A DNA stretch of 45,099 nt from Dhillonvirus LF50P3, in sequence record OZ035753.1; one strand, given 5' to 3'. Positions 11,419 through 40,219 of the stretch are shown here, one piece after another. The position numbers were made by a program, and so were the translations under genes. How positions within the stretch are numbered: position 1 is the first letter of the stretch; each line of letters begins with the position of its first letter. A model generated the notes under the pieces. The model was not told the origin of the DNA and made no database searches. It saw only the letters and a list, made by a program, of their open reading frames with translations.

Positions 11419-11422
11419 TGAA

Positions 11423-11737
11423 GCGGGACAAGCGGGACGTCCCGTTTTGTCCCGCCCCTGTGAAACTGCATACCTACTCACTCTCATTGCATAATCTAAA
11501 AGCGGGACAAGCGGGACGTCCCGTTTTGTCCCACCCCACAAAAGTGCATACGTATTCGGTTTTCGTGCATAAAACAAACGGGACAGAAAGCGGGACAAAC
11601 AAGAGGCGGGACAAAGCGGGACAGCACCCCGTCCCCGCCAGTGCTGCCGCGGTTTTCAGCCGATCGGGACAGGCGGGACAACCCCCAGTCTTTCAGACTA
11701 GACGGGGGTCAATGGCCCCCTCGTCTGAGACTGAATA
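11423..11737. repeat. CGGGAC(A) motif array with two 33-bp hairpin-palindromes and a long stem-loop (copy 1)
   Basis: Near-palindromic units GCGGGACAAGCGGGACGTCCCGTTTTGTCCC(G/A)C at 11423–11455 and 11502–11534; four direct CGGGACA sites at 11579–11623; two more at 11665–11680; imperfect long hairpin 11686–11733. The 11576–11737 part recurs at 40063–40219. Confidence 0.7.
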
Positions 11738-30702: not shown

Positions 30703-32994
30703 TTACTTCCTGTACCTGTACATAATGTCGCCTTCGGCGGCAAGTGGGAAGCCTTTCGCCCAAATAGGCAGGTCGCACATCAGCGCGCAAAGCTCCTCGG
30801 TCGTGTAGTCGTCGGTGTCCGGCACTTCTGTGATCAATTCGTCGTGTACTGACAGGACGATTTCATACCCCGCAGCTTCAACGCCAGGCATGGACCATGC
30901 GAGAATATCGCGACACAACGCCTGTACGATGTTCTCCGTCAGTTTGCCGCCGTAGGTATACTGGAATCCCCACTGGCGCGTCGTCTGATTCTCGCCCTGA
31001 TATTTAATGCGTGTGCTGGTGCGCTTCTTGCCGGTGTCTTCGTCAATCTCGGTAGTGACAGACAGCGCGATGCCCGGGTAGCTCATGATGCGCCCCGACG
31101 GCAACTCAATTTTCAACCACCAACCGGCGGCGTTAGGGTCGTCGCGCTCCTCGTCGAAGGTTGGGTCGTGCTTCGCCTTCGTACGGACAATCTTGAGCGC
31201 TTTTCTACCGTCCGGGCGAACGTTCGCGCCCGCCCAGTATGCTTTGCCCGGATTGCGGATTGCACACAACACCGCGTCCTCAAGCTCGGCCCAAAAGGCT
31301 ACCGTCTTCGGGTGAGCCTCACGCCACATACGTTTGATTGCGTCACAAGTAAGCCATACGTTTTTCGGCAGTATGTATGTTGGGCGCTCGTCTTTCTTAC
31401 CTGGCTTCGGTGGGCGTTTCGCTTCGTTAATGCGGGCGTACTCATAACCACGTTTCGCCGCCGCCCAAATGTGATCCGGGAACGTGCCTTTCATCACGTC
31501 CGCCATAGTGTAAAGGTCGAGGCCCAGGTTTTTAGCGAACTGCAAGAACGCCGCGACGCCGCCACCATAGCCCAGTCCCAATTCGCACGCCTTACCAATC
31601 TGGCGTAAGTCCTTGCGGTTGGCTTTAATGTAATCCGGGTCCAGGCCGAACATCTTACCGGCAGTCTCACAATAGATATCGCGACCGGCCTTAAACACCA
31701 TGAGCGCTGTTTTCTCGCCCGCGATCCAGGCAAGGCCACGCCCTTCCACGTTGGAGTAGTCCGCTACGACAAACTTCTTGCCCTTCGCCGGAATAATGCA
31801 CCCGCGAACGGTCGAGGCGGTTAGCTTCGATATGTCATACGCCCAGTGCGCGGTCCCGCGTAACAGGGAGTTGATGCCGTTGGTGAGCATGTGCGACCGG
31901 ACCCAAAACGAGACGTCGCTTTCGCCTTCGCGGCGCTTAATCTTACCTTCGTGGTCGTCGCTATACTCGCCGCGTGCCAGGTTTTGAGGCTGAAAGCCTT
32001 TACCGGCCCAGCGCAGCGTGCGCTTTGCGCCGCCATACTGAAGACACCCACGGCGGCGACCATCGGCAGACAGGCCATTAACGAGCGGATTGTATTTAGT
32101 CGATGCCGTTGATGACGCTCCGAGGCGCATTTCGATAAGCGCTTTGCCCTCGTCGGGGAAGTCCGGGTCTTCAAGCAGGTCGTTAAGTGTGGATTTCTGC
32201 GCGTTGTGGATCGTGAACGCTGGGGCGATATCACGCAGGATTGGCAGGAAATCATTGCCGGTCAGCTTACCGCCAAATCGCTCCCAGGCTTCTTCCTTCA
32301 ATTCTTCCTTATGCGCCTGCACCGCTTTGATCGCGGCGTTCGCCAGGTCAACGTCCACATAGAAGCCGCGGTCGTTGATCAACTGGTCGATAAGCAGGAT
32401 TTCATCTTCCTTCGGAGTATTACCCCAGTCCGGTATGCGCCAGTAGACTTCACGCATTGCGATAATATCCAGCGCGGCATAGCGCAGAAATTTGGCCCAT
32501 TCTTCCGGGTGAGTCTCGCGAGTGTAGCGGCGTATTTTGTAGGTCTTAGGGGTAGGCTTACAGAATCGTTTAATCAGCGCCTTGCCTGCCTTATCCTTCG
32601 CGTGCTCTGCGTCAACGCCCAGCACCTGGCACTGCATATCGAGGCTACCCGGCAGCGCGTGGCGAAAGGCCATAATCATGGTGTCTTCGATCTGGCTTAC
32701 CGGCAGGTCGATGCCCCACTTCTCACGGATAACCAGGCGGTCAAACAGGAGGCCGTTAGCCATCACTATTTTTGCTTTCTTGCGGGATACATGGCGGAGC
32801 GCCTTGCGCAGTTCACGCGGCATTGTGGGGGATTCAGTGCAATCCCATGTCTGCACGCGGCCTTCGTCGATGGCGTAGGTGCAAATCATAATCTCGGTTG
32901 TTGGGTGCTCCGCGTAGGCGTACGCCCCAACTTTCTTCAGGTCCACCCCGCTAAATGTCTCGGTATCGAGAAACAGGCGTTCGAAGTCTTTCAT
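30703..32994 (-). CDS. DNA polymerase, family A, with N-terminal 3'-5' exonuclease domain
   Basis: 763-aa ORF: exonuclease motif LFLDTETFS; polymerase motif A VVADYSNVEGRGLAWIAGE; motif B RQIGKACELGLGYGGG; motif C VLSVHDELITE. Confidence 0.85.
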   Translation of the reverse strand: MKDFERLFLDTETFSGVDLKKVGAYAYAEHPTTEIMICTYAIDEGRVQTWDCTESPTMPRELRKALRHVSRKKAKIVMANGLLFDRLVIREKWGIDLPVSQIEDTMIMAFRHALPGSLDMQCQVLGVDAEHAKDKAGKALIKRFCKPTPKTYKIRRYTRETHPEEWAKFLRYAALDIIAMREVYWRIPDWGNTPKEDEILLIDQLINDRGFYVDVDLANAAIKAVQAHKEELKEEAWERFGGKLTGNDFLPILRDIAPAFTIHNAQKSTLNDLLEDPDFPDEGKALIEMRLGASSTASTKYNPLVNGLSADGRRRGCLQYGGAKRTLRWAGKGFQPQNLARGEYSDDHEGKIKRREGESDVSFWVRSHMLTNGINSLLRGTAHWAYDISKLTASTVRGCIIPAKGKKFVVADYSNVEGRGLAWIAGEKTALMVFKAGRDIYCETAGKMFGLDPDYIKANRKDLRQIGKACELGLGYGGGVAAFLQFAKNLGLDLYTMADVMKGTFPDHIWAAAKRGYEYARINEAKRPPKPGKKDERPTYILPKNVWLTCDAIKRMWREAHPKTVAFWAELEDAVLCAIRNPGKAYWAGANVRPDGRKALKIVRTKAKHDPTFDEERDDPNAAGWWLKIELPSGRIMSYPGIALSVTTEIDEDTGKKRTSTRIKYQGENQTTRQWGFQYTYGGKLTENIVQALCRDILAWSMPGVEAAGYEIVLSVHDELITEVPDTDDYTTEELCALMCDLPIWAKGFPLAAEGDIMYRYRK

Positions 32995-33219: not shown

Positions 33220-34002
33220 TTAACGGCGGCGACGTTTACGTGGCGCTTCGTCTTCGTCGTCGTCCTCATCTTCGTCATCGCGTGGCTTACGACGTTTGCG
33301 AGGTTTTTCATCTTCCTCATCGTCGTCGTCATCGCGGCGCTTGGATTTCTTGGACTTGCGCGGCTTGTCATCTTCGTCATCGTCATCACGACGTTTTGAC
33401 TTTTTGGACTTGCGCGGGCTTTCGTCTTCGTCATCGTTGTCCAGGTCTTCGTCGGAACATGAAGACCCGCCACCTCCGAAGGCTTCGCCGTCTTCACGGA
33501 ATCGCAGACCCAGCAAGCCAGCCCCGAGTCCCTTGCCGTTGGTATTGTTCCACGCCCAAATATCCAGGGACACATTGCAATAACAACCGGAGTAGATCTC
33601 CTGGCCTTCGATCTCGTCACCTTCTACGGTCAGACCTTGTTCCGTCTGCTTCTCGCCGAGTGACGTTTGAATGATCGGCTGTTTGAACGATTTGGCGTTG
33701 ATATACAACATGCCTTCGAATTCTTCGGTTACTTCATCGCGCTCGTCGCCGTCGCGCACTGCGCATTCCTTAGAATCCTGGGCGTAGTGGCGGTCCATCC
33801 ACTTATCGGCATTCTTCTCGGATTTCAGCTTGTCGGTGAGCACTGCGCGCGCTGCCGCTTCCACTTTGTCCACCTGCGGATCTTCTTTATCCAGAAGAAT
33901 CACGGCACGGTATGCCGGTTTTTGTCCATCCTGTTTAGGGGTATCACGTTCCCAAATTTTCAGGAAGCATACGCGCACATTTTTCAGGTTGACTTTAGCC
34001 AT
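33220..34002 (-). CDS. single-stranded DNA-binding protein, DUF2815-like (T7 gp2.5-type) with repetitive charged tail
   Basis: N-terminus MAKVNLKNVRVCFLKIWE typical of the DUF2815 phage SSB family; the C-terminal 80 residues are alternating poly-Asp/Glu and Lys/Arg blocks encoded by DNA-level tandem repeats. Confidence 0.6.
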   Translation of the reverse strand: MAKVNLKNVRVCFLKIWERDTPKQDGQKPAYRAVILLDKEDPQVDKVEAAARAVLTDKLKSEKNADKWMDRHYAQDSKECAVRDGDERDEVTEEFEGMLYINAKSFKQPIIQTSLGEKQTEQGLTVEGDEIEGQEIYSGCYCNVSLDIWAWNNTNGKGLGAGLLGLRFREDGEAFGGGGSSCSDEDLDNDDEDESPRKSKKSKRRDDDDEDDKPRKSKKSKRRDDDDDEEDEKPRKRRKPRDDEDEDDDEDEAPRKRRRR

Positions 34003-34092: not shown

Positions 34093-34335
34093 TCAAGCAT
34101 TTTCATTAAAAAGATTTCTGGTAACGTAGTCGGTAGCGTTCTCGATCCAGCTTAATGGCGGGCGGTCGATATTCTTCGCCCCCCAATCGGCGGCAGCTTC
34201 GCTATATCCGTCATCCAGCCAGCGGGTCGGATGCCGAATCATCCACGCCACCCTTAACACGCCATGCACACAATGCAGGATAAAGCCCAGCGCGCCGATA
34301 ACAAACATCAATAATATTGCGAATACTTTATTCAT
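34093..34335 (-). CDS. hypothetical membrane protein
   Basis: 80-aa ORF with N-terminal hydrophobic helix VFAILLMFVIGALGFILHCV. Confidence 0.4.
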   Translation of the reverse strand: MNKVFAILLMFVIGALGFILHCVHGVLRVAWMIRHPTRWLDDGYSEAAADWGAKNIDRPPLSWIENATDYVTRNLFNENA

Positions 34336-35758
34336 TGCTTAAGTCCTCGTCAGTAGCTACAGGCCACGCAGGGCGCGGGTCGTCGATGGGTGCTAATACC
34401 GGTTTAGCTGGTGCGCGCGTTATTTTATCACACAACTTTGCCCACACTTTCGGCTTCTCGTCCTTCAATACCTTCTCGGCATCAGTAGGGCTGAGTAATG
34501 TTTCTTTGTACATAACATCGCGCTTGATCCGGGCCTTCGTGAAGATTTCAATCACTTCGCTTTCGTCCGCCCACTTGCGGATCCCTTCCTTACCGGCAAC
34601 CATTTTGAGGCCCAGCGATTCGCCTTCGCCAGCCATAACCGCCTTGAATACCGCGGACTCTATAGCCTTGATGTGCTGGCGCATTGCGTCTAGACCTTCA
34701 TATGCCTTGCGCAGTTCTGCGGCGGTCATAGCGCCTGGGGCCGCTTCTTTCTTACCACGCTTCGCACGTCGTGCCGCTTTGCGGGCTTCGCGGGCCATAT
34801 TGCGGTCGTGATTGGCGCATTCTTCCTCTGTCGCAATACTCACGTCGTCGCCCAGGTCTTCGTCTGTTGCCGTTGGTGGGGCCATCGTGTCGATTGCGGC
34901 CTTAGCGCGGGCGCTACACTGATCCGCAAATCTGCACCACTGACACGCATCAACGCTCGGTCGGAAGTCGGCACGGGTGAGTCCCTTTTTGCCGCGGGCG
35001 TACGCTTCCAGGGCGGCGATAGCACGCTTGGACGCAAACTTCGCGAATATCTCCAGGGCTTCTACCGAAATATCCCACTCCGACGCCCCGCCGCAATACG
35101 GCTGGAAGATAACCAGGCGCACGGTCGTAATGTCGTACATGGATTGCAGCTTGCGCAGCAGGCCGAGCGCGTACAACATAAGCTGTTTGTTTTCTTTCGC
35201 CTCGACCTTATGTCGTCCCGTCTTCAGGTCGCCAACAATCAGCATGTACGTGCCGTCGGTCTTCTTCATGACCATGACCATATCCGCAGTGCCGAACGTC
35301 TTAACCCGGTTGCCGTCGATCTCGAAGCCAGAGTGTAGGACGCGGGTGAGATCGGCGCGCATCTCAAGCTGAACAAACTCCGCCACTTCGAGTAGCGGTC
35401 GCCAGTGGTCGATGTACGCGTCGCACTGTTTCACCATGTCGTCGTTGACCAGTACGCCGCCTTTCGGTGCTTTCGGGTGCGCCTTTACCGGCCCCTTACC
35501 TTCGTTCTCGACGTAGCACCCTTTGTACGTTTTCGCGGTTATCAGCTTCTCACCGGCGATAATGCGGTTGAGCACGACTTCCGATACGGTGTGCATACTC
35601 GTACCGTTAATAGCCGCTTGCCCGGATTCGTTCGGGATATCTTTTTCCACCACCAGGGCGGCGGGGCAACCCATCCATTTTTTAGCACCGGATGGGCCGA
35701 GTAATGAGTGTTCCGTGTTGCTGCCGGATTGCGTTTTACGTTTTGGTTTAATCGCCAT
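34328..35758 (-). CDS. Cas4/RecB-like PD-(D/E)xK nuclease, DUF2800-like, with C-terminal extension
   Basis: 476-aa ORF with N-terminal GPSGAKKWMGCPAA, central D...E.K-type core (LIVGDLKTG) and cysteine cluster CQWCRFADQC typical of Fe-S-containing Cas4-like nucleases; about 170-residue charged C-terminal extension. Confidence 0.65.
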   Translation of the reverse strand: MAIKPKRKTQSGSNTEHSLLGPSGAKKWMGCPAALVVEKDIPNESGQAAINGTSMHTVSEVVLNRIIAGEKLITAKTYKGCYVENEGKGPVKAHPKAPKGGVLVNDDMVKQCDAYIDHWRPLLEVAEFVQLEMRADLTRVLHSGFEIDGNRVKTFGTADMVMVMKKTDGTYMLIVGDLKTGRHKVEAKENKQLMLYALGLLRKLQSMYDITTVRLVIFQPYCGGASEWDISVEALEIFAKFASKRAIAALEAYARGKKGLTRADFRPSVDACQWCRFADQCSARAKAAIDTMAPPTATDEDLGDDVSIATEEECANHDRNMAREARKAARRAKRGKKEAAPGAMTAAELRKAYEGLDAMRQHIKAIESAVFKAVMAGEGESLGLKMVAGKEGIRKWADESEVIEIFTKARIKRDVMYKETLLSPTDAEKVLKDEKPKVWAKLCDKITRAPAKPVLAPIDDPRPAWPVATDEDLSNE

Positions 35759-35946
35759 TATTCCACCCTTGAAAATTGAGCAATGTAATAATCGTGTTCA
35801 ACATTGGCCCGCTTCGCGGCTTCGTTCATGGTCGGGGCGAGTTCGCAGGCTTGCGTCCAGCAACGAATACAGTCCACATTCATAACAATTTCCGGTTGCT
35901 CGTCGCCGGTGATACGGCAACGAAATAAAACAAAGAATATAGCCAT

Positions 35947-36198
35947 TTATTTTGTCTCCCAGCGATCAATTGTTTTTGCTTCGGATGCAACTGCGAAGCG
36001 AACATATTCCAGATTGGAATCCGCCCAAATATAAAAGTCGGGATTAATAAAGGTGGTGCGCTTAATTTGCGCGGGGGTATTGCGGCGTTTGTCTATTACG
36101 GCAACGCGTGACTGAAAATTGCCGATGCGTTCGAATAGCCAATAATATGGGCGCTGGTCGCGGGAGTCCACCGCCTCGATTAGCGTGAAGCGTGCCAT
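35947..36198 (-). CDS. hypothetical protein
   Basis: 83-aa ORF in the minus-strand early block; no motif. Confidence 0.4.
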   Translation of the reverse strand: MARFTLIEAVDSRDQRPYYWLFERIGNFQSRVAVIDKRRNTPAQIKRTTFINPDFYIWADSNLEYVRFAVASEAKTIDRWETK

Positions 36199-36376
36199 TG
36201 TCTCGTCCTCTAAAAATAGGCCCGCAGATTAGCGGGCCGGATAATATTAATCTTCACCGCCGAGTTGTCTATAAACCTCGTCCGGGTCGTCGCCTCTTTC
36301 TTCGCAGAAGGCGGTGAATGCCGCCCAATTTTCCGCTATGAAATCGAGCATGATTCTCATTTCATAGTCCATGATA

Positions 36377-36895
36377 TTAATCTTCCAGTTCGAAATAAGT
36401 TTCGACGATTTCTTTTAGCTCTTTGTGGAAGTCTTCGACGTCGTCATCTTCCAGCTTAGCGATTGATTTGATCTCGAACGATTCCAGCAGGTCGTCGAAT
36501 TCATCGTTCGCATCGTCGTCATCGCCACCGGCGATAATCGCGGCATACTGCTTGATTTCGTCGCGCATTTCTGCCAGCGGATCGGCATCTTTCTTACCTT
36601 TGCCTTTCGCCGGTGCTTTTTTAGACTTAGCCGGTTTTTCGTCTTCTGCGTCTTCGTCGTCGTCATCTTCTACGACTTCTTTTTTGGCCTTACCCTTCGC
36701 CGGTGCTTTTTTAGCTTTAGCCGGTTTTTCGTCTTCGGCGTCATCGTCGTCATCTTCGGCAACTTCTTTTTTGGCCTTAGACGGCTTCTTGTCTTCCTGT
36801 TTACCAACGGCAGCGCCAACGGTTTCATAATGCTTTGCAATGGTTTCCAGTGCTACTACGCCGCGAGTGATCAGGTTTACGATTTGCTCAAACAT
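36377..36895 (-). CDS. acidic repeat protein
   Basis: 172-aa ORF from MFEQIVNLITRG with RBS GGAGAT; contains two copies of a Lys/Ala-rich plus poly-Asp/Glu unit (KKPSKAKKEVAEDDDDDAEDEKPAKAKKAPAKGKAKKEVVEDDDDEDAEDEKPAKSKKAPAKGKGKK) from a DNA tandem repeat, then a very acidic C-terminus. The listed start at 37075 runs into the intergenic region and was trimmed. Confidence 0.55.
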   Translation of the reverse strand: MFEQIVNLITRGVVALETIAKHYETVGAAVGKQEDKKPSKAKKEVAEDDDDDAEDEKPAKAKKAPAKGKAKKEVVEDDDDEDAEDEKPAKSKKAPAKGKGKKDADPLAEMRDEIKQYAAIIAGGDDDDANDEFDDLLESFEIKSIAKLEDDDVEDFHKELKEIVETYFELED

Positions 36896-37132
36896 GGTAT
36901 ATCTCCGATTGGTTAAGTTTAGGTGTCGGCAGTTAACTTCGTCGGTGGCCTTAACATATTGCCAGGTTACGCGTTCTCCCGTTCGGGTAGTGGACCTGGT
37001 TATATAATCACGGTTGGGAATCCTGACACTTCGATCCGGCCCCTGCGTTGCCCCTCTCCAGTTTGCGTCCTGCATCCTGTCGACGGGGGGAATAATAGAT
37101 TGGTTGCAGGATGGGTGTCAACAACTAATTTC

Positions 37133-37167
37133 AAAAAAAAAGCGCCGAGGCAAAATGCGACGGCGCT
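37133..37167 (-). terminator. orphan minus-strand intrinsic terminator in a divergent intergenic region
   Basis: Plus strand shows A9 then AGCGCCG-aggcaaaatgcga-CGGCGCT; on the minus strand this is a 7-bp GC-rich stem followed by U9. No minus-strand CDS ends here. Confidence 0.55.
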
Positions 37168-37237
37168 AACCAATAAGAGACAATGAGACGGGAATTATTA
37201 TTACACGCGTGCGCGCCCGTTTCAATATCCAAAGGAT

Positions 37238-37266
37238 TTGACACAGTGCAGTTTTGGGTGTAGTTT
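37238..37266 (+). promoter_or_regulatory. sigma70-like promoter candidate for the HTH gene
   Basis: Consensus -35 TTGACA, 17-nt spacer, -10-like TAGTTT; about 30 nt upstream of the ATG at 37298 with RBS GAGGG. Confidence 0.4.
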
Positions 37267-37297
37267 CGTTGGTCATTAACCAACTGAGGGCAGAGCA

Positions 37298-37627
37298 ATG
37301 AATGTAAACGACGCAATCGAAATGTTAACGAAGACTGTTTGCAGTGAGACAAGCCGGTCATGGGCATATACCGATGCCGTGGGGGCTGTGTTATTTGAAA
37401 TCGAACGACTGCGGCTTACCGAAAAAGAATTGCGCGCCAGGCTGGAACTACTCAACGGTACAGCAGCAAGCAAGCTGCAAAAACACAATGAAGAAATGGA
37501 AGAATACAAAAAGCAGGTTATCCGTTTGCGCGCCGAGGGCAAATCTTGGGCGATGATTGCCGAGTTGACCGGAATTAATCAGAGCACAGTGCGCTCCTGG
37601 GTACGCAATAATAAAACTTCTAAGTAA
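37298..37627 (+). CDS. small helix-turn-helix DNA-binding protein (putative transcriptional regulator)
   Basis: 109-aa ORF; coiled-coil-like middle and C-terminal HTH-like segment KSWAMIAELTGINQSTVRSWVRN; first gene of the right-hand plus-strand block. Confidence 0.6.
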   Translation: MNVNDAIEMLTKTVCSETSRSWAYTDAVGAVLFEIERLRLTEKELRARLELLNGTAASKLQKHNEEMEEYKKQVIRLRAEGKSWAMIAELTGINQSTVRSWVRNNKTSK

Positions 37628-37637
37628 GGCCACGGCA

Positions 37638-39902
37638 ATGAGCTTGATTAAATTCGCTATAACAAAACCCGCTAAAAAAGGCGAAAAAGCCAGGGCGGAA
37701 AACTTCCAGATGACGACCGATGAGTTTTTCGAATTTATCAAAGATGCGAAAGAAATCTCCTCGGTGCATATCAACAAGACGGAAGATAAAGCCGAGTATG
37801 CGCGCCGCAAGCGTAAGGCCGATGGCATCGTGGCGTATACCAGTGACGGATTGCGTCGTAAGACCAGTGCGGTGGACCGCTCGATCCTGTTCTTTGATAT
37901 TGACCGCACCGACACCCGCACCCTGCGCCGCTGCCGTAAGGCGTTCATCGACGCGGGACTGGAGCACGTCTTCCACACCACTACCGGCGACCGCCACCCG
38001 CTGAAAGGCGGCACGCGTTGCGCTCGTTTCCTGGTGCTCACTGACAAGCCTGTACCGGCGGAAGACCTGGGCCGCGTCCAGTATGCACTATTACACCAAC
38101 TGGGCCTGTCAGATGTGGACTTCGACGATTGCACGAAAGACACAAACCGCCTTATGTACCTGCCTCACCAGCAATCGGTTGTTAAGTGTCACTACGGCAA
38201 ACGCGCCCGCGTCCGTCGTCTTCTTCGCCTGGCTGATAAGCTGGGAGTGGAAAAAGAGGAAGTACGCCGCGAACTAACCCAGGGCGATGACGGCGTGGCG
38301 GACGGTATTCTGGATTGGTGCTTCCAGGCGGGATTCGAACCGCTGTCGTCCGGTCGTGGTTATGAAGTGCCGTGCCCTAACGAACACCTGCATAGCGGCG
38401 AAGGGTCAACCGCTATCATGGTTAAGGATGGCGAGATCCGTTTCAAGTGTATGCACACCGGCAACGAGTGTTGCTCGGAACTGAATAGACACCAGCACCT
38501 GGCGCTACGTCTTATCGGGATCCCGGACCACCTGAACGTCGAACCGCACAACATGTCACGTAAGCAAATCGCCGCCATCCTTCCGGGACTGGACGATGAG
38601 GAAGTGGAATCGTGCTACGAACATATCGTTGATGCGGTCGGAGACGGCGACGAGTACGGCGTATGTACAGATGCAGACCTGGACAACGAGCCGGTTGCTC
38701 TGTTCAGTAAGCACGACCCGATCATCGAGGGGCTGATTAACTTCAAATCGACCTGGTATCTGGCTGGCGAGTCGAACATCGGTAAATCGTTCTACGTGCT
38801 GGGCCAGATGGCGTCAGTATCTGCCGGTATTCCGTTCGGCGGCGCGAAGGTCGTCCAGTCTCATTGCTTCTATTTCGACGCGGAAGGTGGCGAAGCCTCC
38901 AACCAGCGTAAGGAGGCATTGCAGATTAAATATGAGCACGACCTGGACAAGCTGCACATTATCGATCTGCAATCACGCGGCTGGGATATCACCAGCAAAT
39001 CCGGCTTGCGTGAAGTTATCAGCTTCATCAACCGCACCGCTAACGGCGAGCCGGTTGGCCTGGTGGCGTTCGACTCACTCAACCAGACTGTTGCGCTGCG
39101 GTCCGCCGATGCAAAACCGTTCGACGAGAACAACGCCAGCGATATGGGCGAAGTGGTCAAAGCGCTGAAGGCCATTGCGGAAAATACAGGCGGCAGTGCG
39201 GGCGTCATCCACCACCCGGCGAAAGGTGCAAACGGCAGCAGATCCCCCCGCGGGTCCGGCGCGCTGCATGGTGCTGTTGATTCTGCGTTCTTCCTGGAGC
39301 AACCGGACGACAACCAGCCAGGCCAATTGAACCTGTATCACGAAAAGGCACGTAACGGCATCAAGCAAGCGCCGCGCGGCTTCGTCCTGCTCAAGTGCAA
39401 GGTTAAGGTGGATCTCCGCAAGTCCGAAGCGTTCGAAGCCCACCAGTCCACCAGCGCCGGGCCAGACTTCGGCGATGTGGTTGCCGGTTGGGACGTCAAG
39501 CCGATTGCATCCACGCCACGCGACGAGACTCTGTACCTCGTACCGGTCGCCCTGGCACCGTTCGCTATTGAACAGGCGAAGGCTGCGGGCAAAGCAGCAG
39601 TTAAGGAAGAGAACGCCGCAGGGCCGCGCAACGAAAAAGAGAAAGTGCTTTATGCAGCACTGGAAAAACTGATGGAAGATAACCCGGACCATACCGGATT
39701 CAGCAAATCGGCAATTGTCCGCCAGGCTGGGCTTGCGAAAGGTGGCACATCTACGAAGGCAATAGACGATATGGTCGAGCGCGGCGTGCTTGGGTTTTAC
39801 ACAGACCCACACACCGGGGCCATCTATGGGTCGTCTAATATCGTCATCAAAACGAACATACCCATCACGCTTTCGGCTACCGATGACGACCTGAAAGATT
39901 AA
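37638..39902 (+). CDS. DNA primase/helicase fusion
   Basis: 754-aa ORF: N-terminal primase-like region with acidic cluster LFFDIDRTD, a Cys/His cluster (CPNEHLH...CMHTGNECC) and a C-terminal RecA/DnaB-like ATPase with Walker A GESNIGKS and Walker B-like LVAFDSL. Confidence 0.8.
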   Translation: MSLIKFAITKPAKKGEKARAENFQMTTDEFFEFIKDAKEISSVHINKTEDKAEYARRKRKADGIVAYTSDGLRRKTSAVDRSILFFDIDRTDTRTLRRCRKAFIDAGLEHVFHTTTGDRHPLKGGTRCARFLVLTDKPVPAEDLGRVQYALLHQLGLSDVDFDDCTKDTNRLMYLPHQQSVVKCHYGKRARVRRLLRLADKLGVEKEEVRRELTQGDDGVADGILDWCFQAGFEPLSSGRGYEVPCPNEHLHSGEGSTAIMVKDGEIRFKCMHTGNECCSELNRHQHLALRLIGIPDHLNVEPHNMSRKQIAAILPGLDDEEVESCYEHIVDAVGDGDEYGVCTDADLDNEPVALFSKHDPIIEGLINFKSTWYLAGESNIGKSFYVLGQMASVSAGIPFGGAKVVQSHCFYFDAEGGEASNQRKEALQIKYEHDLDKLHIIDLQSRGWDITSKSGLREVISFINRTANGEPVGLVAFDSLNQTVALRSADAKPFDENNASDMGEVVKALKAIAENTGGSAGVIHHPAKGANGSRSPRGSGALHGAVDSAFFLEQPDDNQPGQLNLYHEKARNGIKQAPRGFVLLKCKVKVDLRKSEAFEAHQSTSAGPDFGDVVAGWDVKPIASTPRDETLYLVPVALAPFAIEQAKAAGKAAVKEENAAGPRNEKEKVLYAALEKLMEDNPDHTGFSKSAIVRQAGLAKGGTSTKAIDDMVERGVLGFYTDPHTGAIYGSSNIVIKTNIPITLSATDDDLKD

Positions 39903-39977: not shown

Positions 39978-40062
39978 ATTTTGAGTGTTTTTATCAGGTC
40001 GTATTGGTTGCCGTGTAGTGTGAATATAGTGAATAGTTATGCAGTTTTGTTGCATAAAGTAA

Positions 40063-40219
40063 GCGGGACAGAAAGCGGGACAAACAAGGGGCGGGACAAA
40101 GCGGGACAGCACCCCCGTCCCGCCCCGGATGGCGCGGCCTGGAGAGGAGCGGGACAGGCGGGACAACCCCCAGTCTTTCAGACTAGACGGGGGTCAATGG
40201 CCCCCCTCGTCTGAGACTG
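40063..40219. repeat. CGGGAC(A) motif array and long stem-loop (copy 2)
   Basis: GCGGGACA at 40063, 40075, 40091, 40101, 40149 and 40158, then the hairpin CAGTCTTTCAGACTAGACGGGGGTCAATGGCCCCCCTCGTCTGAGACTG (40171–40219); near-identical to 11576–11737. Confidence 0.7.

What the first reader, a model, noticed from the sequence alone, without database searches (positions are those of the whole stretch)
36244..36895. Acidic repeat protein plus adjacent small acidic ORF: DNA-mimic or anti-restriction candidates
Seen directly: the 172-aa protein at 36377–36895 contains a duplicated Lys/Ala-rich plus poly-Asp/Glu unit from a DNA tandem repeat of about 100 bp (36590–36790) and ends in a highly acidic segment. 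An unlisted 41-codon acidic ORF at about 36244–36369 follows immediately (MDYEMRIMLDFIAENWAAFTAFCEERGDDPDEVYRQLGGED). Both are first in the minus-strand block nearest the divergent control region, so likely early. Established knowledge: very acidic early proteins such as Ocr act as DNA mimics against restriction or other DNA-binding defences. The assignment here is inference.
Basis: partly seen in the sequence, partly recalled or inferred. Interest (0 to 1): 0.5.

Follow-up and report, generated by a model that had tools for sequence, protein, structure and literature searches.

The report
Acidic replication-operon protein and leader RNA
The two acidic genes are real. The larger is a conserved first gene of a coliphage DNA replication and recombination operon rather than a recognisable anti-restriction DNA mimic, the small one is an optional mobile gene, and both are transcribed behind a previously uncatalogued, strongly conserved structured RNA.

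Summary
The window is a Dhillonvirus (HK578-like coliphage). ORF A (36377-36895, minus strand, 172 aa, pI 4.45) contains a 90-bp x2 tandem repeat.

ORF A has three parts:
- a conserved N-terminal heptad helix;
- a disordered, charge-neutral Lys/Ala plus Asp/Glu linker, 21-85 aa long among close relatives; this is the repeat;
- a conserved acidic three-helix bundle of about 63 aa.

No sequence or fold search linked ORF A to Ocr, ArdA or Gam. In every relative with enough downstream flank to check (25-98% identity), it heads the same operon: DUF2800 nuclease, gp2.5-type SSB, PolA. I therefore read it as a tethered acidic protein-binding module of that DNA-metabolism module. This is inference.

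ORF B is unlinked to ORF A. It is a 129-bp cassette bounded by 12-nt direct repeats, present in about 28% of Dhillonvirus records. Homologues occur in P22-like, N4-like and other phages. It remains an untested anti-defence candidate.

The 166-nt leader (36920-37085) is a structured RNA shared with Drexlerviridae and Sortsnevirus phages. Of its 40 base pairs, 21 show compensatory changes, and it matches no Rfam family.

The parts
37092..37121 (-). Sigma-70-type promoter of the ORF A transcription unit: TTGACA, 18-nt spacer, TATTAT.
   Evidence: It matches 11 of 12 consensus positions. It is retained in all Dhillonvirus relatives examined, including those that lack the leader RNA.
36920..37085 (-). 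Structured leader RNA motif of about 166 nt. It starts at the predicted transcription start and ends about 15 nt before the ribosome-binding site. It has a closing stem P1, then P1b, P2, a long invariant hairpin P3, and a variable stem P4 that encloses hairpin P5.
   Evidence: A covariance model built only from 12 non-Dhillonvirus copies matches this stretch over its full length (125 bits, E about 1e-31). Of the cells, 93.7% are paired, against 30-47% when partners are slid. Of 40 pairs, 21 show compensatory changes, and 0 of 500 shuffles reach the observed values. It matches no Rfam 15 family even at E<=10.
36903..36906 (-). Shine-Dalgarno GGAG of ORF A.
   Evidence: Read directly from the sequence.
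36377..36895 (-). ORF A, 172 aa plus stop codon. It belongs to PHROG 3127 (function unknown).
   Evidence: Supported by the ORF list and sequence, the PHROG match (E 1.7e-53), database relatives and purifying selection.
36815..36895 (-). ORF A N-terminal amphipathic helix, residues 1-27. Hydrophobic residues sit at heptad positions F2, V6, I9, V13, L16, A20 and Y23.
   Evidence: AlphaFold2 predicts a helix at residues 2-27 with low monomer confidence. L8, R11, V13, A15, E17, I19 and A20 are invariant in alignment A2. That the helix oligomerises is inference.
36581..36814 (-). ORF A disordered linker of mixed positive and negative charge, residues 28-105. It contains the 90-bp x2 tandem repeat at 36606-36779.
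   Evidence: Supported by the repeat call, pLDDT below 50 for residues 23-101, 22 K/R against 25 D/E, and linker lengths of 21-85 aa with 0-2 acidic blocks among 101 close relatives.
36380..36580 (-). ORF A acidic C-terminal three-helix bundle, residues 106-172, net charge -19.
   Evidence: AlphaFold2 predicts helices at 106-123, 127-139 and 150-168 with pLDDT about 90. The C-terminal stretch measured from its conserved start motif is a constant 62-64 aa in the family. It is acidic in 25 of 28 diverse members. Structurally it is only a generic three-helix bundle.
36247..36372 (-). ORF B, 41 aa plus stop codon. It belongs to PHROG 15754 (function unknown) and is predicted to form a helical hairpin.
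   Evidence: Supported by the ORF list, the PHROG match and an AlphaFold2 model with pLDDT 91.7 and helices at 3-26 and 30-36. It is present in only 43 of about 154 Dhillonvirus records, and has homologues below 60% identity in other genera.
36374..36385 (-). Left copy of the 12-nt direct repeat GAAGATTAATAT. It covers the last two codons and stop codon of ORF A plus TAT.
   Evidence: Alignment A6 shows that relatives without ORF B carry one copy, joined directly to the terminator.
36244..36255 (-). Right copy of the direct repeat GAAGATTAATAT. It covers the last two codons and stop codon of ORF B plus TAT. Together the two copies bound the 129-bp ORF B cassette.
   Evidence: Alignment A6.
36210..36238 (-). 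Intrinsic terminator: a 7-bp all-G+C stem (GGCCCGC...GCGGGCC), a 6-nt loop and the tail UAUUUUU. It lies between ORF A/B and the downstream replication genes.
   Evidence: Supported by the terminator scan and a fold of -18.4 kcal/mol. PTXU06 annotates it as a terminator. Relatives keep the stem while the loop varies.

Best explanation
This stretch is a short transcription unit read by the host RNA polymerase. In order it contains a promoter, a 166-nt structured leader RNA, ORF A, the optional ORF B and a terminator. It opens the phage's replication and recombination operon: DUF2800 PD-(D/E)XK nuclease, gp2.5/Enc34-type single-strand-binding and annealing protein, and PolA.

ORF A is a modular protein. 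It has a short N-terminal heptad helix, probably an oligomerisation or docking helix. A long flexible charge-neutral linker follows, whose length drifts through slippage of the 90-bp repeat. The protein ends in a small, strongly acidic three-helix bundle.

The most likely mechanism is that the tethered acidic bundle binds a basic, DNA-binding surface of a protein in DNA metabolism. Candidates are the phage's own nuclease, SSB, polymerase or primase-helicase, or a host factor that acts on the same DNA ends. ORF A would thereby recruit or restrain that partner. Functionally this would resemble the acidic C-terminal tails of T7 gp2.5 and E. coli SSB, or the small helical C-terminal domains of phage annealases.

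ORF B is a separate, horizontally mobile small helical protein of unknown target.

Shown here: the anatomy, conservation, synteny, disorder and fold predictions, and the cassette boundaries. Inferred: oligomerisation, the binding partner and the mode of action.
For: Synteny.
- Every locus that encodes an ORF A relative and has enough flank has the same order: primase-helicase divergent, then ORF A, 0-3 small ORFs, DUF2800 nuclease, SSB, PolA. This holds from 98% down to 25% identity.
- In L010 the nuclease gene starts 52 nt after the ORF A homologue.
- The duf2800-gp2.5-polA module is a recognised unit (PMC8093625).

Family features.
- The family is small and uniform: 63 clusters at 50% identity, 31-212 aa including fragments, about 115-212 aa for full-length members.
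- The N-terminal helix and the C-terminal domain are under purifying selection, with dN/dS 0.00-0.34.
- The linker varies from 21 to 101 aa and stays near charge neutrality.
- The C-terminal domain is acidic in 25 of 28 members.
- AlphaFold2 gives a confident three-helix bundle (pLDDT about 90) and a disordered linker.

Weak hints that agree with each other but are not significant point to partner-binding helical domains of recombination proteins:
- the Red-beta C-terminal domain in complex with lambda Exo (Foldseek E 5.6);
- the C-terminal part of a DUF1071 annealase (hmmsearch E 0.17);

ORF B independence.
Against: No partner has been identified and no significant homology to any characterised protein exists.

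Conserved position as first gene is also a property of T7 Ocr (my own knowledge), so synteny alone does not exclude an anti-host role.

The DUF2800-gp2.5-PolA module exists in many phages, for example phages of Firmicutes. I did not look there for an ORF A relative, so ORF A is not shown to be a general requirement of the module.

A BFVD structural relative in Salmonella phage MB78 is named '13.88 kDa late protein'. I could not trace the basis of that name.
Confidence: 0.4

Rival explanations
1. ORF A and/or ORF B would be Ocr/ArdA-like DNA mimics that block type I restriction-modification or another DNA-binding defence early in infection.
For: Both proteins are acidic, with pI 4.45 and 4.05. 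Both are transcribed first from a strong host-type promoter. The acidity of ORF A's C-terminal domain is conserved. ORF B behaves like an accessory gene: it has a patchy distribution, is flanked by direct repeats, and has homologues in unrelated phages' early regions. That is typical of counter-defence genes.
Confidence: 0.12
2. ORF A would be a functional analogue of lambda Gam or T7 gp5.9. It would inhibit a host end-processing nuclease (RecBCD or SbcCD) and so protect the phage's linear DNA and recombination intermediates.
For: ORF A lies immediately upstream of the phage's own exonuclease and annealing-SSB genes. From my own knowledge, gam lies next to bet and exo in lambda, and gene 5.9 lies next to gene 6 in T7. 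ORF A has an acidic domain and a probable oligomerisation helix. No other RecBCD inhibitor is evident in this region: the 'Gam' label some records give to the ORF at 37298-37627 rests on an HTH protein.
Against: There is no sequence or fold similarity to Gam, gp5.9 or Abc2. I did not survey the whole genome for other candidates. The long variable linker has no counterpart in those inhibitors.
Confidence: 0.18
3. The charge-block linker would itself be the functional part. ORF A would act as a scaffold that concentrates replication proteins by multivalent electrostatic interactions. The phage SSB's C-terminal tail has a similar Lys/Arg plus Asp/Glu repeat and could take part.
For: Two proteins of the same operon carry tandem-repeat-encoded blocks of alternating basic and acidic residues: ORF A and the SSB tail, encoded by a 54-bp repeat at 33313-33437. 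The linker keeps its mixed-charge composition across the family even though its sequence is not conserved.
Against: A natural variant with a 21-aa linker and no acidic block exists (P0098), so the blocks are not essential. The best-conserved parts are the two folded ends. No direct evidence was obtainable.
Confidence: 0.1
4. ORF B would be an early small regulator or toxin-like host-takeover factor with no role in defence evasion. ORF A would be a host-transcription or nucleoid modifier that binds, for example, H-NS, HU or RNA polymerase.
For: Small acidic early proteins of other phages act on H-NS, HU or RNA polymerase (my own knowledge). ORF B homologues sit in early regions next to varied genes.
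Against: There is no similarity to any such protein. ORF A's strict linkage to the nuclease-SSB-polymerase genes is not explained by a general host-takeover role.
Confidence: 0.1

Closest known systems
T7 Ocr (gp0.3) and ArdA DNA-mimic anti-restriction proteins
   Same: These are acidic proteins. Ocr is encoded at the start of an early transcription unit read by host RNA polymerase, and conserved negative charge is the functional surface.
   Different: There is no sequence or fold match. Only a 63-aa three-helix bundle of ORF A is acidic. The repeat region is neutral and disordered. ORF A is tied to a replication and recombination module across distant phages.
Acidic C-terminal tails of T7 gp2.5 and E. 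coli SSB (a disordered linker plus an acidic tip that docks on replication and repair partners)
   Same: ORF A also combines a flexible low-complexity linker with a terminal acidic element in a DNA-replication gene context, and the linker length is variable.
   Different: ORF A has no OB fold or other DNA-binding domain. Its acidic element is a folded bundle, not a short peptide. The other end of the protein is a single helix. The resemblance is functional analogy only, from my own knowledge, and was not tested.
C-terminal partner-binding helical domains of phage annealases (the Red-beta C-terminal domain bound to lambda Exo, the C-terminal region of DUF1071/Sak3) and lambda NinB/Orf
   Same: These are small helical domains, and in the 6m9k Red-beta/lambda Exo complex the domain contacts the cognate exonuclease. 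ORF A sits next to the phage exonuclease. Weak hits were found to each.
Lambda Gam and T7 gp5.9 (RecBCD inhibitors)
   Same: They are small, acidic, oligomeric proteins encoded beside the phage exonuclease and annealing genes.
   Different: No similarity was detected, and inhibition of RecBCD was not tested.
For the leader RNA: promoter-proximal cis-acting phage RNAs such as the HK022 put processive antiterminators, and riboswitch aptamers
   Same: The motif begins at the transcription start and lies upstream of a terminator that precedes essential genes. It has a closing stem around a multi-stem junction with many invariant unpaired nucleotides.
   Different: There is no sequence or structure match to any of the 4227 Rfam families. 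At about 165 nt with five or six stems it is larger than put. Some Dhillonviruses lack it yet keep the terminator. No ligand or partner is known.

Membership tests
Ocr / ArdA DNA-mimic anti-restriction proteins | Sequence membership in the family (a Pfam family match). | tested here: not met
   ORF A has no Pfam hit above its cut-off. The only hits are BUD22 (E 0.015) and DUF6669 (E 0.067), both below cut-off. ORF B has none. Among 28 diverse ORF A family members, the 25 most frequently matched Pfam families (of 34 matched at E<=0.1) include no anti-restriction family.
Ocr / ArdA DNA-mimic anti-restriction proteins | A fold that presents an extended array of carboxylates imitating B-form DNA. 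| tested here: not met
Ocr / ArdA DNA-mimic anti-restriction proteins | Binds type I restriction-modification enzymes and relieves restriction in vivo. | not testable with these tools
   This needs plating assays or binding assays.
Lambda Gam / T7 gp5.9 RecBCD inhibitors | Sequence or fold similarity to a known inhibitor. | tested here: not met
   There is no such hit in Pfam, in the PDB sequence search or in the fold searches.
PHROG 3127 (phage protein family of unknown function) | Full-length profile match. | tested here: met
   E 1.7e-53, residues 1-172 on profile positions 1-178.
PHROG 15754 (phage protein family of unknown function) | Full-length profile match for ORF B. | tested here: met
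   E 1e-24, residues 1-41 on profile positions 3-43. There is also a match to PHROG 21467 at E 8e-09.
duf2800-gp2.5-polA replication and recombination module (PMC8093625) | ORF A is co-located and co-oriented with a DUF2800 nuclease, a DUF2815/Enc34-type SSB and PolA. | tested here: met
   The nuclease scores 1.3e-66 against DUF2800. The gene order is conserved in all loci with enough flank.
Annealase C-terminal partner-binding domain (Red-beta C-terminal domain, DUF1071 C-terminal region) | Significant sequence or structure similarity. | tested here: inconclusive
   Foldseek gives E 5.6 to 6m9k. hmmsearch gives E 0.17 to 8qe9 residues 137-194. Both are at or below chance level.
Any Rfam 15 RNA family (for the leader RNA) | Covariance-model match at the gathering score, or at E<=10. 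| tested here: not met
   There is no match over 36920-37085 in the window, and none on the copies in L040, L041 and L042.

The most novel reading that the evidence does not exclude
The 166-nt leader would be a new class of functional phage RNA. It could be a ligand-sensing or machinery-binding element: riboswitch-like, a processive antiterminator, or an RNA decoy against a host defence. It moves horizontally between at least three groups of virulent enterobacterial siphophages and sits at the very 5' end of early transcripts. The protein behind it in Dhillonviruses, ORF A, would be a new hub or regulator that uses a tethered nucleic-acid-mimicking bundle to control the DUF2800 nuclease, which a 2026 preprint reports as the trigger of retron type IX immunity.
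Probability: 0.25. Interest if true: 0.75.

Novelty: new variant of a known kind. Interest (0 to 1): 0.5.

Why it matters
Dhillonviruses (SECphi18, Bas14-18) are now standard test phages in bacterial immunity work. Their replication module supplies several known immune triggers: the SSB for Retron-Eco8, the polymerase for Borvo, and the DUF2800 nuclease for retron IX.

Three outcomes are useful:
- ORF A is a conserved, uncharacterised first gene of that module, so it is an obvious missing component to test.
- Showing that ORF A and ORF B are unrelated units, and that the repeat is a linker rather than a mimic surface, redirects the experiments.
- The leader RNA has strong covariation support, is absent from Rfam, and comes with natural motif-plus and motif-minus phage pairs. 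That makes its function directly testable.

Tried and rejected
Homology searches for ORF A.
- Pfam, PHROGs and a PDB sequence profile gave only unknown-function families and composition-driven sub-threshold hits: BUD22, DDRGK, ribosome-recycling factor at E 0.033.
- An exhaustive profile search of 1.84 billion representatives found only 63 clusters, all of the same architecture and none annotated.

Literature.
- ORF A and ORF B are not Ksap1 (74 aa, between a methylase and a phosphatase gene), not anti-Tmn ORF35, and not the RAZR, Retron-Eco8 or Borvo determinants.
- The HIDEN-SEQ essentiality preprint does not cover Dhillonviruses.
- The EE09 proteomics text I searched names CDS numbers only, so it did not resolve ORF A.
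- The 'late protein' name of the MB78 relative could not be traced.

The 232-aa upstream-extended ORF (ATG at 37075) is rejected as coding. It overlaps the RNA motif, is out of frame in L006 and is absent from motif-less relatives.

The leader RNA.
- Single-sequence folding gave z = +0.68, so the structure is invisible without comparison.
- RNAalifold on plain MAFFT alignments lost stems P1 and P4. I therefore used anchored duplex analysis and a covariance model.
- A tRNA or tmRNA reading is rejected, because ARAGORN finds none.
- A resemblance to 5S rRNA that I noticed by eye is not colinear, and Rfam does not support it.

Other attempts.
- The search for related loci with the most diverse alignment failed for lack of conserved stretches.
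- The large-database search with ORF B returned only its own cluster.

Full report
Identity of the window. A megablast of 35900-37700 finds 175 phage records. Almost all are Dhillonvirus (HK578-like E. coli siphophages), and the best is phage welsh at 98.2%. The genes around the finding are:
- a divergent HTH gene (37298-37627, plus strand) and a primase-helicase (37638-39902, plus strand; AAA_25, PHROG 3228);
- on the minus strand, ORF A, ORF B, two small ORFs, a DUF2800/PD-(D/E)XK nuclease (34328-35758; Pfam E 1.3e-66), a gp2.5/Enc34-type SSB (33220-33999) and PolA (30703-32994).

Checking the observation. ORF B lies at 36247-36372, 3 bases from the stated coordinates. Tandem Repeats Finder reports a 90-bp unit in 2.0 copies at 36606-36779, with 88% matches and score 272. 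ORF A has pI 4.45 and charge -23. ORF B has pI 4.05 and charge -9.5. Relatives annotate both as hypothetical proteins. They belong to PHROG 3127 and PHROG 15754, both of unknown function.

The unit is framed by a near-consensus sigma-70 promoter (TTGACA, 18-nt spacer, TATTAT; 37121-37092) and a terminator with an all-G+C stem (36238-36219). Host-polymerase, presumably early, expression is a fair inference.

What ORF A is made of. Alignments of close and distant relatives show three parts.
- The N-terminal helix is conserved. L8, R11, V13, A15, E17, I19 and A20 are invariant in A2, and hydrophobic residues fall at heptad positions 2, 6, 9, 13, 16, 20 and 23.
- The middle region has no conserved sequence.
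- The C-terminal stretch, measured from its conserved start motif, has a constant length of 62-64 residues.

AlphaFold2 with a 35-sequence alignment gives a helix at 2-27, disorder at 23-101 (pLDDT below 50), and a confident three-helix bundle at 106-168 (pLDDT about 90).

The tandem repeat encodes the disordered middle. That region is not acidic overall: it has 22 K/R against 25 D/E. In contrast, the C-terminal bundle carries -19. Among 101 close relatives the linker ranges from 21 to 85 aa with 0, 1 or 2 acidic blocks. P0098 has no acidic block at all. Across 28 diverse members the linker stays near neutrality, while the bundle is acidic (-9 to -20) in 25 of them.

The N- and C-terminal domains are under purifying selection, with dN/dS 0.00-0.34. 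The 'acidic repeat' is therefore a slippage-prone flexible tether. The conserved functional elements are the terminal helix and the acidic bundle.

Search for relatives of known function. None was found.
- Pfam gives only sub-threshold composition hits.
- A profile search of PDB sequences gives nothing below E 0.03.
- An exhaustive profile search of 1.84 billion representative proteins returns just 63 clusters. The full-length members have the same three-part architecture and the rest are fragments of it; this library carries no names or annotation.
- Foldseek against the PDB has no hit below E 0.47.
- BFVD returns only uncharacterised phage proteins. Examples are Edwardsiella phage eiAU Gp46, Salmonella phage St162, and MB78 '13.88 kDa late protein'.
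- Ocr, ArdA and Gam do not appear anywhere.

Genomic context. This is the strongest evidence. In five contigs found through distant homologues, and in 27 IMG/VR loci, every locus with enough flank shows the same order. A primase-helicase is divergent, followed by the ORF A relative, 0-3 small ORFs, the DUF2800 nuclease, the gp2.5-type SSB and PolA. ORF A identity in these loci runs from 98% down to 25%.

The duf2800-gp2.5-polA module is described in the literature (PMC8093625). The Bas14 DUF2800 nuclease is reported as the trigger of retron type IX (bioRxiv 10.64898/2026.07.14.737667). ORF A is therefore a core, syntenic member of the replication and recombination module, not a patchy accessory gene.

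My best explanation, at confidence 0.4, is a tethered acidic protein-binding module that recruits or restrains a DNA-binding partner in this module or a host enzyme acting on the same DNA. A Gam-like role (0.18), an Ocr-like anti-restriction role (0.12), a charge-block scaffold (0.1) and a general host-takeover role (0.1) remain open.

ORF B is a separate element.
- tblastn finds it at 90% identity or more in only 43 phage records, whereas 154 records carry ORF A. It is present in 5 of about 18 Dhillonvirus loci held here.
- Alignment of phages with and without ORF B shows a clean 129-bp insertion/deletion bounded by the 12-nt direct repeat GAAGATTAATAT. This repeat covers the last two codons and stop codon of ORF A, and again of ORF B. 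Phages without ORF B join ORF A's stop codon directly to the terminator.
- Homologues at 44-46% identity share F11, W16, A17, C23, E24, G27, P30 and L37. They occur in a P22-like phage (between N and recT), in N4-like Pectobacterium phages (between primase and recombinase), in mEp010 and in others.
- AlphaFold2 predicts a confident helical hairpin with pLDDT 91.7.

This distribution fits an accessory, possibly counter-defence gene. No test here shows its function. It is not Ksap1 or anti-Tmn.

The leader RNA. Between the promoter and ORF A lies a cassette of about 166 nt.
- It is about 96% identical in L006, a relative whose ORF A domains are only 79% identical at the nucleotide level with dS of 0.5-1.0.
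- It is cleanly missing from 4 of the 15 IMG/VR Dhillonvirus loci (L012-L026). Those loci keep the promoter, remnants of the closing stem, and the terminator.
- A sensitive blastn finds its core at 86-92% identity in unrelated phages: Drexlerviridae (Motto, JK16, KMI8), Sortsnevirus (sortkaff, IME279) and BUCT618. It always lies in a 200-260-nt intergenic gap, in the sense orientation. In the copies inspected it begins about 7 nt after a -10 box and is followed by the ribosome-binding site of genes from different unknown families.
- Anchored duplex analysis shows stems P1, P4a, P4b and P5 changing sequence while keeping their pairing. In P4b, for example, the paired strands are CCAGG/CCTGG, CCTGG/CCAGG, CCCGG/CCGGG, CTATC/GATAG, CGCAC/GTGCG and CATTGG/CCAATG.
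- A covariance model built from 12 non-Dhillonvirus copies matches the window copy over its full length at 125 bits, E about 1e-31.
- On the resulting 24 distinct sequences, 93.7% of cells are paired, against 30-47% for slid controls. Of 40 pairs, 21 have compensatory changes. The covariation score is 0.408, against 0.02-0.07 for slid controls, and 0 of 500 shuffles reach the observed values.
- Rfam 15 has no match, even at E<=10.
- Pattern scans find 19 IMG/VR loci and 15 metagenome contigs, where complete of phage size and all full-length model matches. Only one hit occurs in 185,579 bacterial species genomes, on a 42.7-kb contig that I suspect is phage DNA (not checked).
- A literature search for its core sequence found nothing relevant.

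The motif is a real, conserved, horizontally mobile structured RNA at the 5' end of early transcripts. Its function is unknown. A promoter-proximal cis-acting role (antitermination or ligand sensing) or an RNA decoy role are my inferences. Because some Dhillonviruses lack it, it is dispensable.

Verdict. The early and acidic parts of the interpretation hold, but the DNA-mimic anti-restriction assignment has no support. For ORF A the context points instead to the replication and recombination module. ORF B is an independent accessory cassette. The leader RNA is the most novel item at this locus.

Noticed in passing
window 36920-37085 (minus strand); also L039 2477-2641, L040 2474-2638, L041 2489-2651, L042 1489-1652, L044 1476-1640: A structured RNA motif of about 165 nt lies at the 5' end of the ORF A transcript. 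It is shared with Drexlerviridae, Sortsnevirus and other siphophages. Of its 40 pairs, 21 show compensatory changes. It is absent from Rfam 15 and essentially absent from bacterial genomes, and some Dhillonviruses lack it. After the closing stem most copies read ACCA or ACCU.
   Followed up: yes
window 37131-37225 (minus strand): A second promoter-like site (TTGAAA, 17-nt spacer, AATAAT with a TG; 37225-37197) is followed by a terminator hairpin and a U-run (37183-37134), just upstream of the ORF A promoter. This could give an RNA of about 55 nt, or insulate the divergent operons. It is the best-conserved part of the intergenic region (93-96% mean identity). L024 shows compensatory changes in the terminator stem.
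   Followed up: partly
window 33220-33999 (minus strand); repeat at 33313-33437: The gp2.5/Enc34-type SSB ends in a tail of alternating Lys/Arg and Asp/Glu blocks (SPRKSKKSKRRDDDDED...). The tail is encoded by a 54-bp tandem repeat in 2.3 copies. This is the same kind of repeat-generated mixed-charge segment as in ORF A.
   Followed up: partly
window 36896-37075 (minus strand): An in-frame upstream ATG extends ORF A to 232 aa. Several database entries use the extended form (P0003 231 aa, P0063 239 aa, P0066 and P0076 207 aa). The extension overlaps the RNA motif, is out of frame in L006, and is absent from motif-less relatives, so these gene calls are probably wrong.
   Followed up: yes
window 37298-37627 (plus strand): Several phage records call this 109-aa ORF 'DNA recombination nuclease inhibitor gamma', 'transposase' or 'resolvase'. 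Pfam finds only a C-terminal HTH (HTH_23, Sigma70_r4_2), so the Gam label looks unsupported.
   Followed up: partly
window 34328-35758 (minus strand): The DUF2800 PD-(D/E)XK nuclease belongs to the same Pfam family and the same phage genus as Bas14_0045 (B14T). A 2026 preprint reports B14T as the non-essential phage trigger of retron type IX. I did not compare the two sequences directly.
   Followed up: partly
window 11421-11438, 11500-11517, 11579-11624 and 40061-40109: Short repeats built on AAGCGGGAC / CGGGACAGAAAG recur at two distant places in the genome. I did not examine them.
   Followed up: no
P0121 (208 aa): One distant family member carries two copies of the acidic C-terminal domain in tandem. 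The bundle therefore behaves as an independent, duplicable module.
   Followed up: no
phage records MG065648 (Campylobacter phage A144), OQ221563 (Acinetobacter phage NJ01), NC_013600 (Sodalis phage SO-1): Records with non-E. coli host labels carry this region at about 99% identity to coliphage Dhillonviruses. The host labels may be wrong or may reflect contamination.
   Followed up: no
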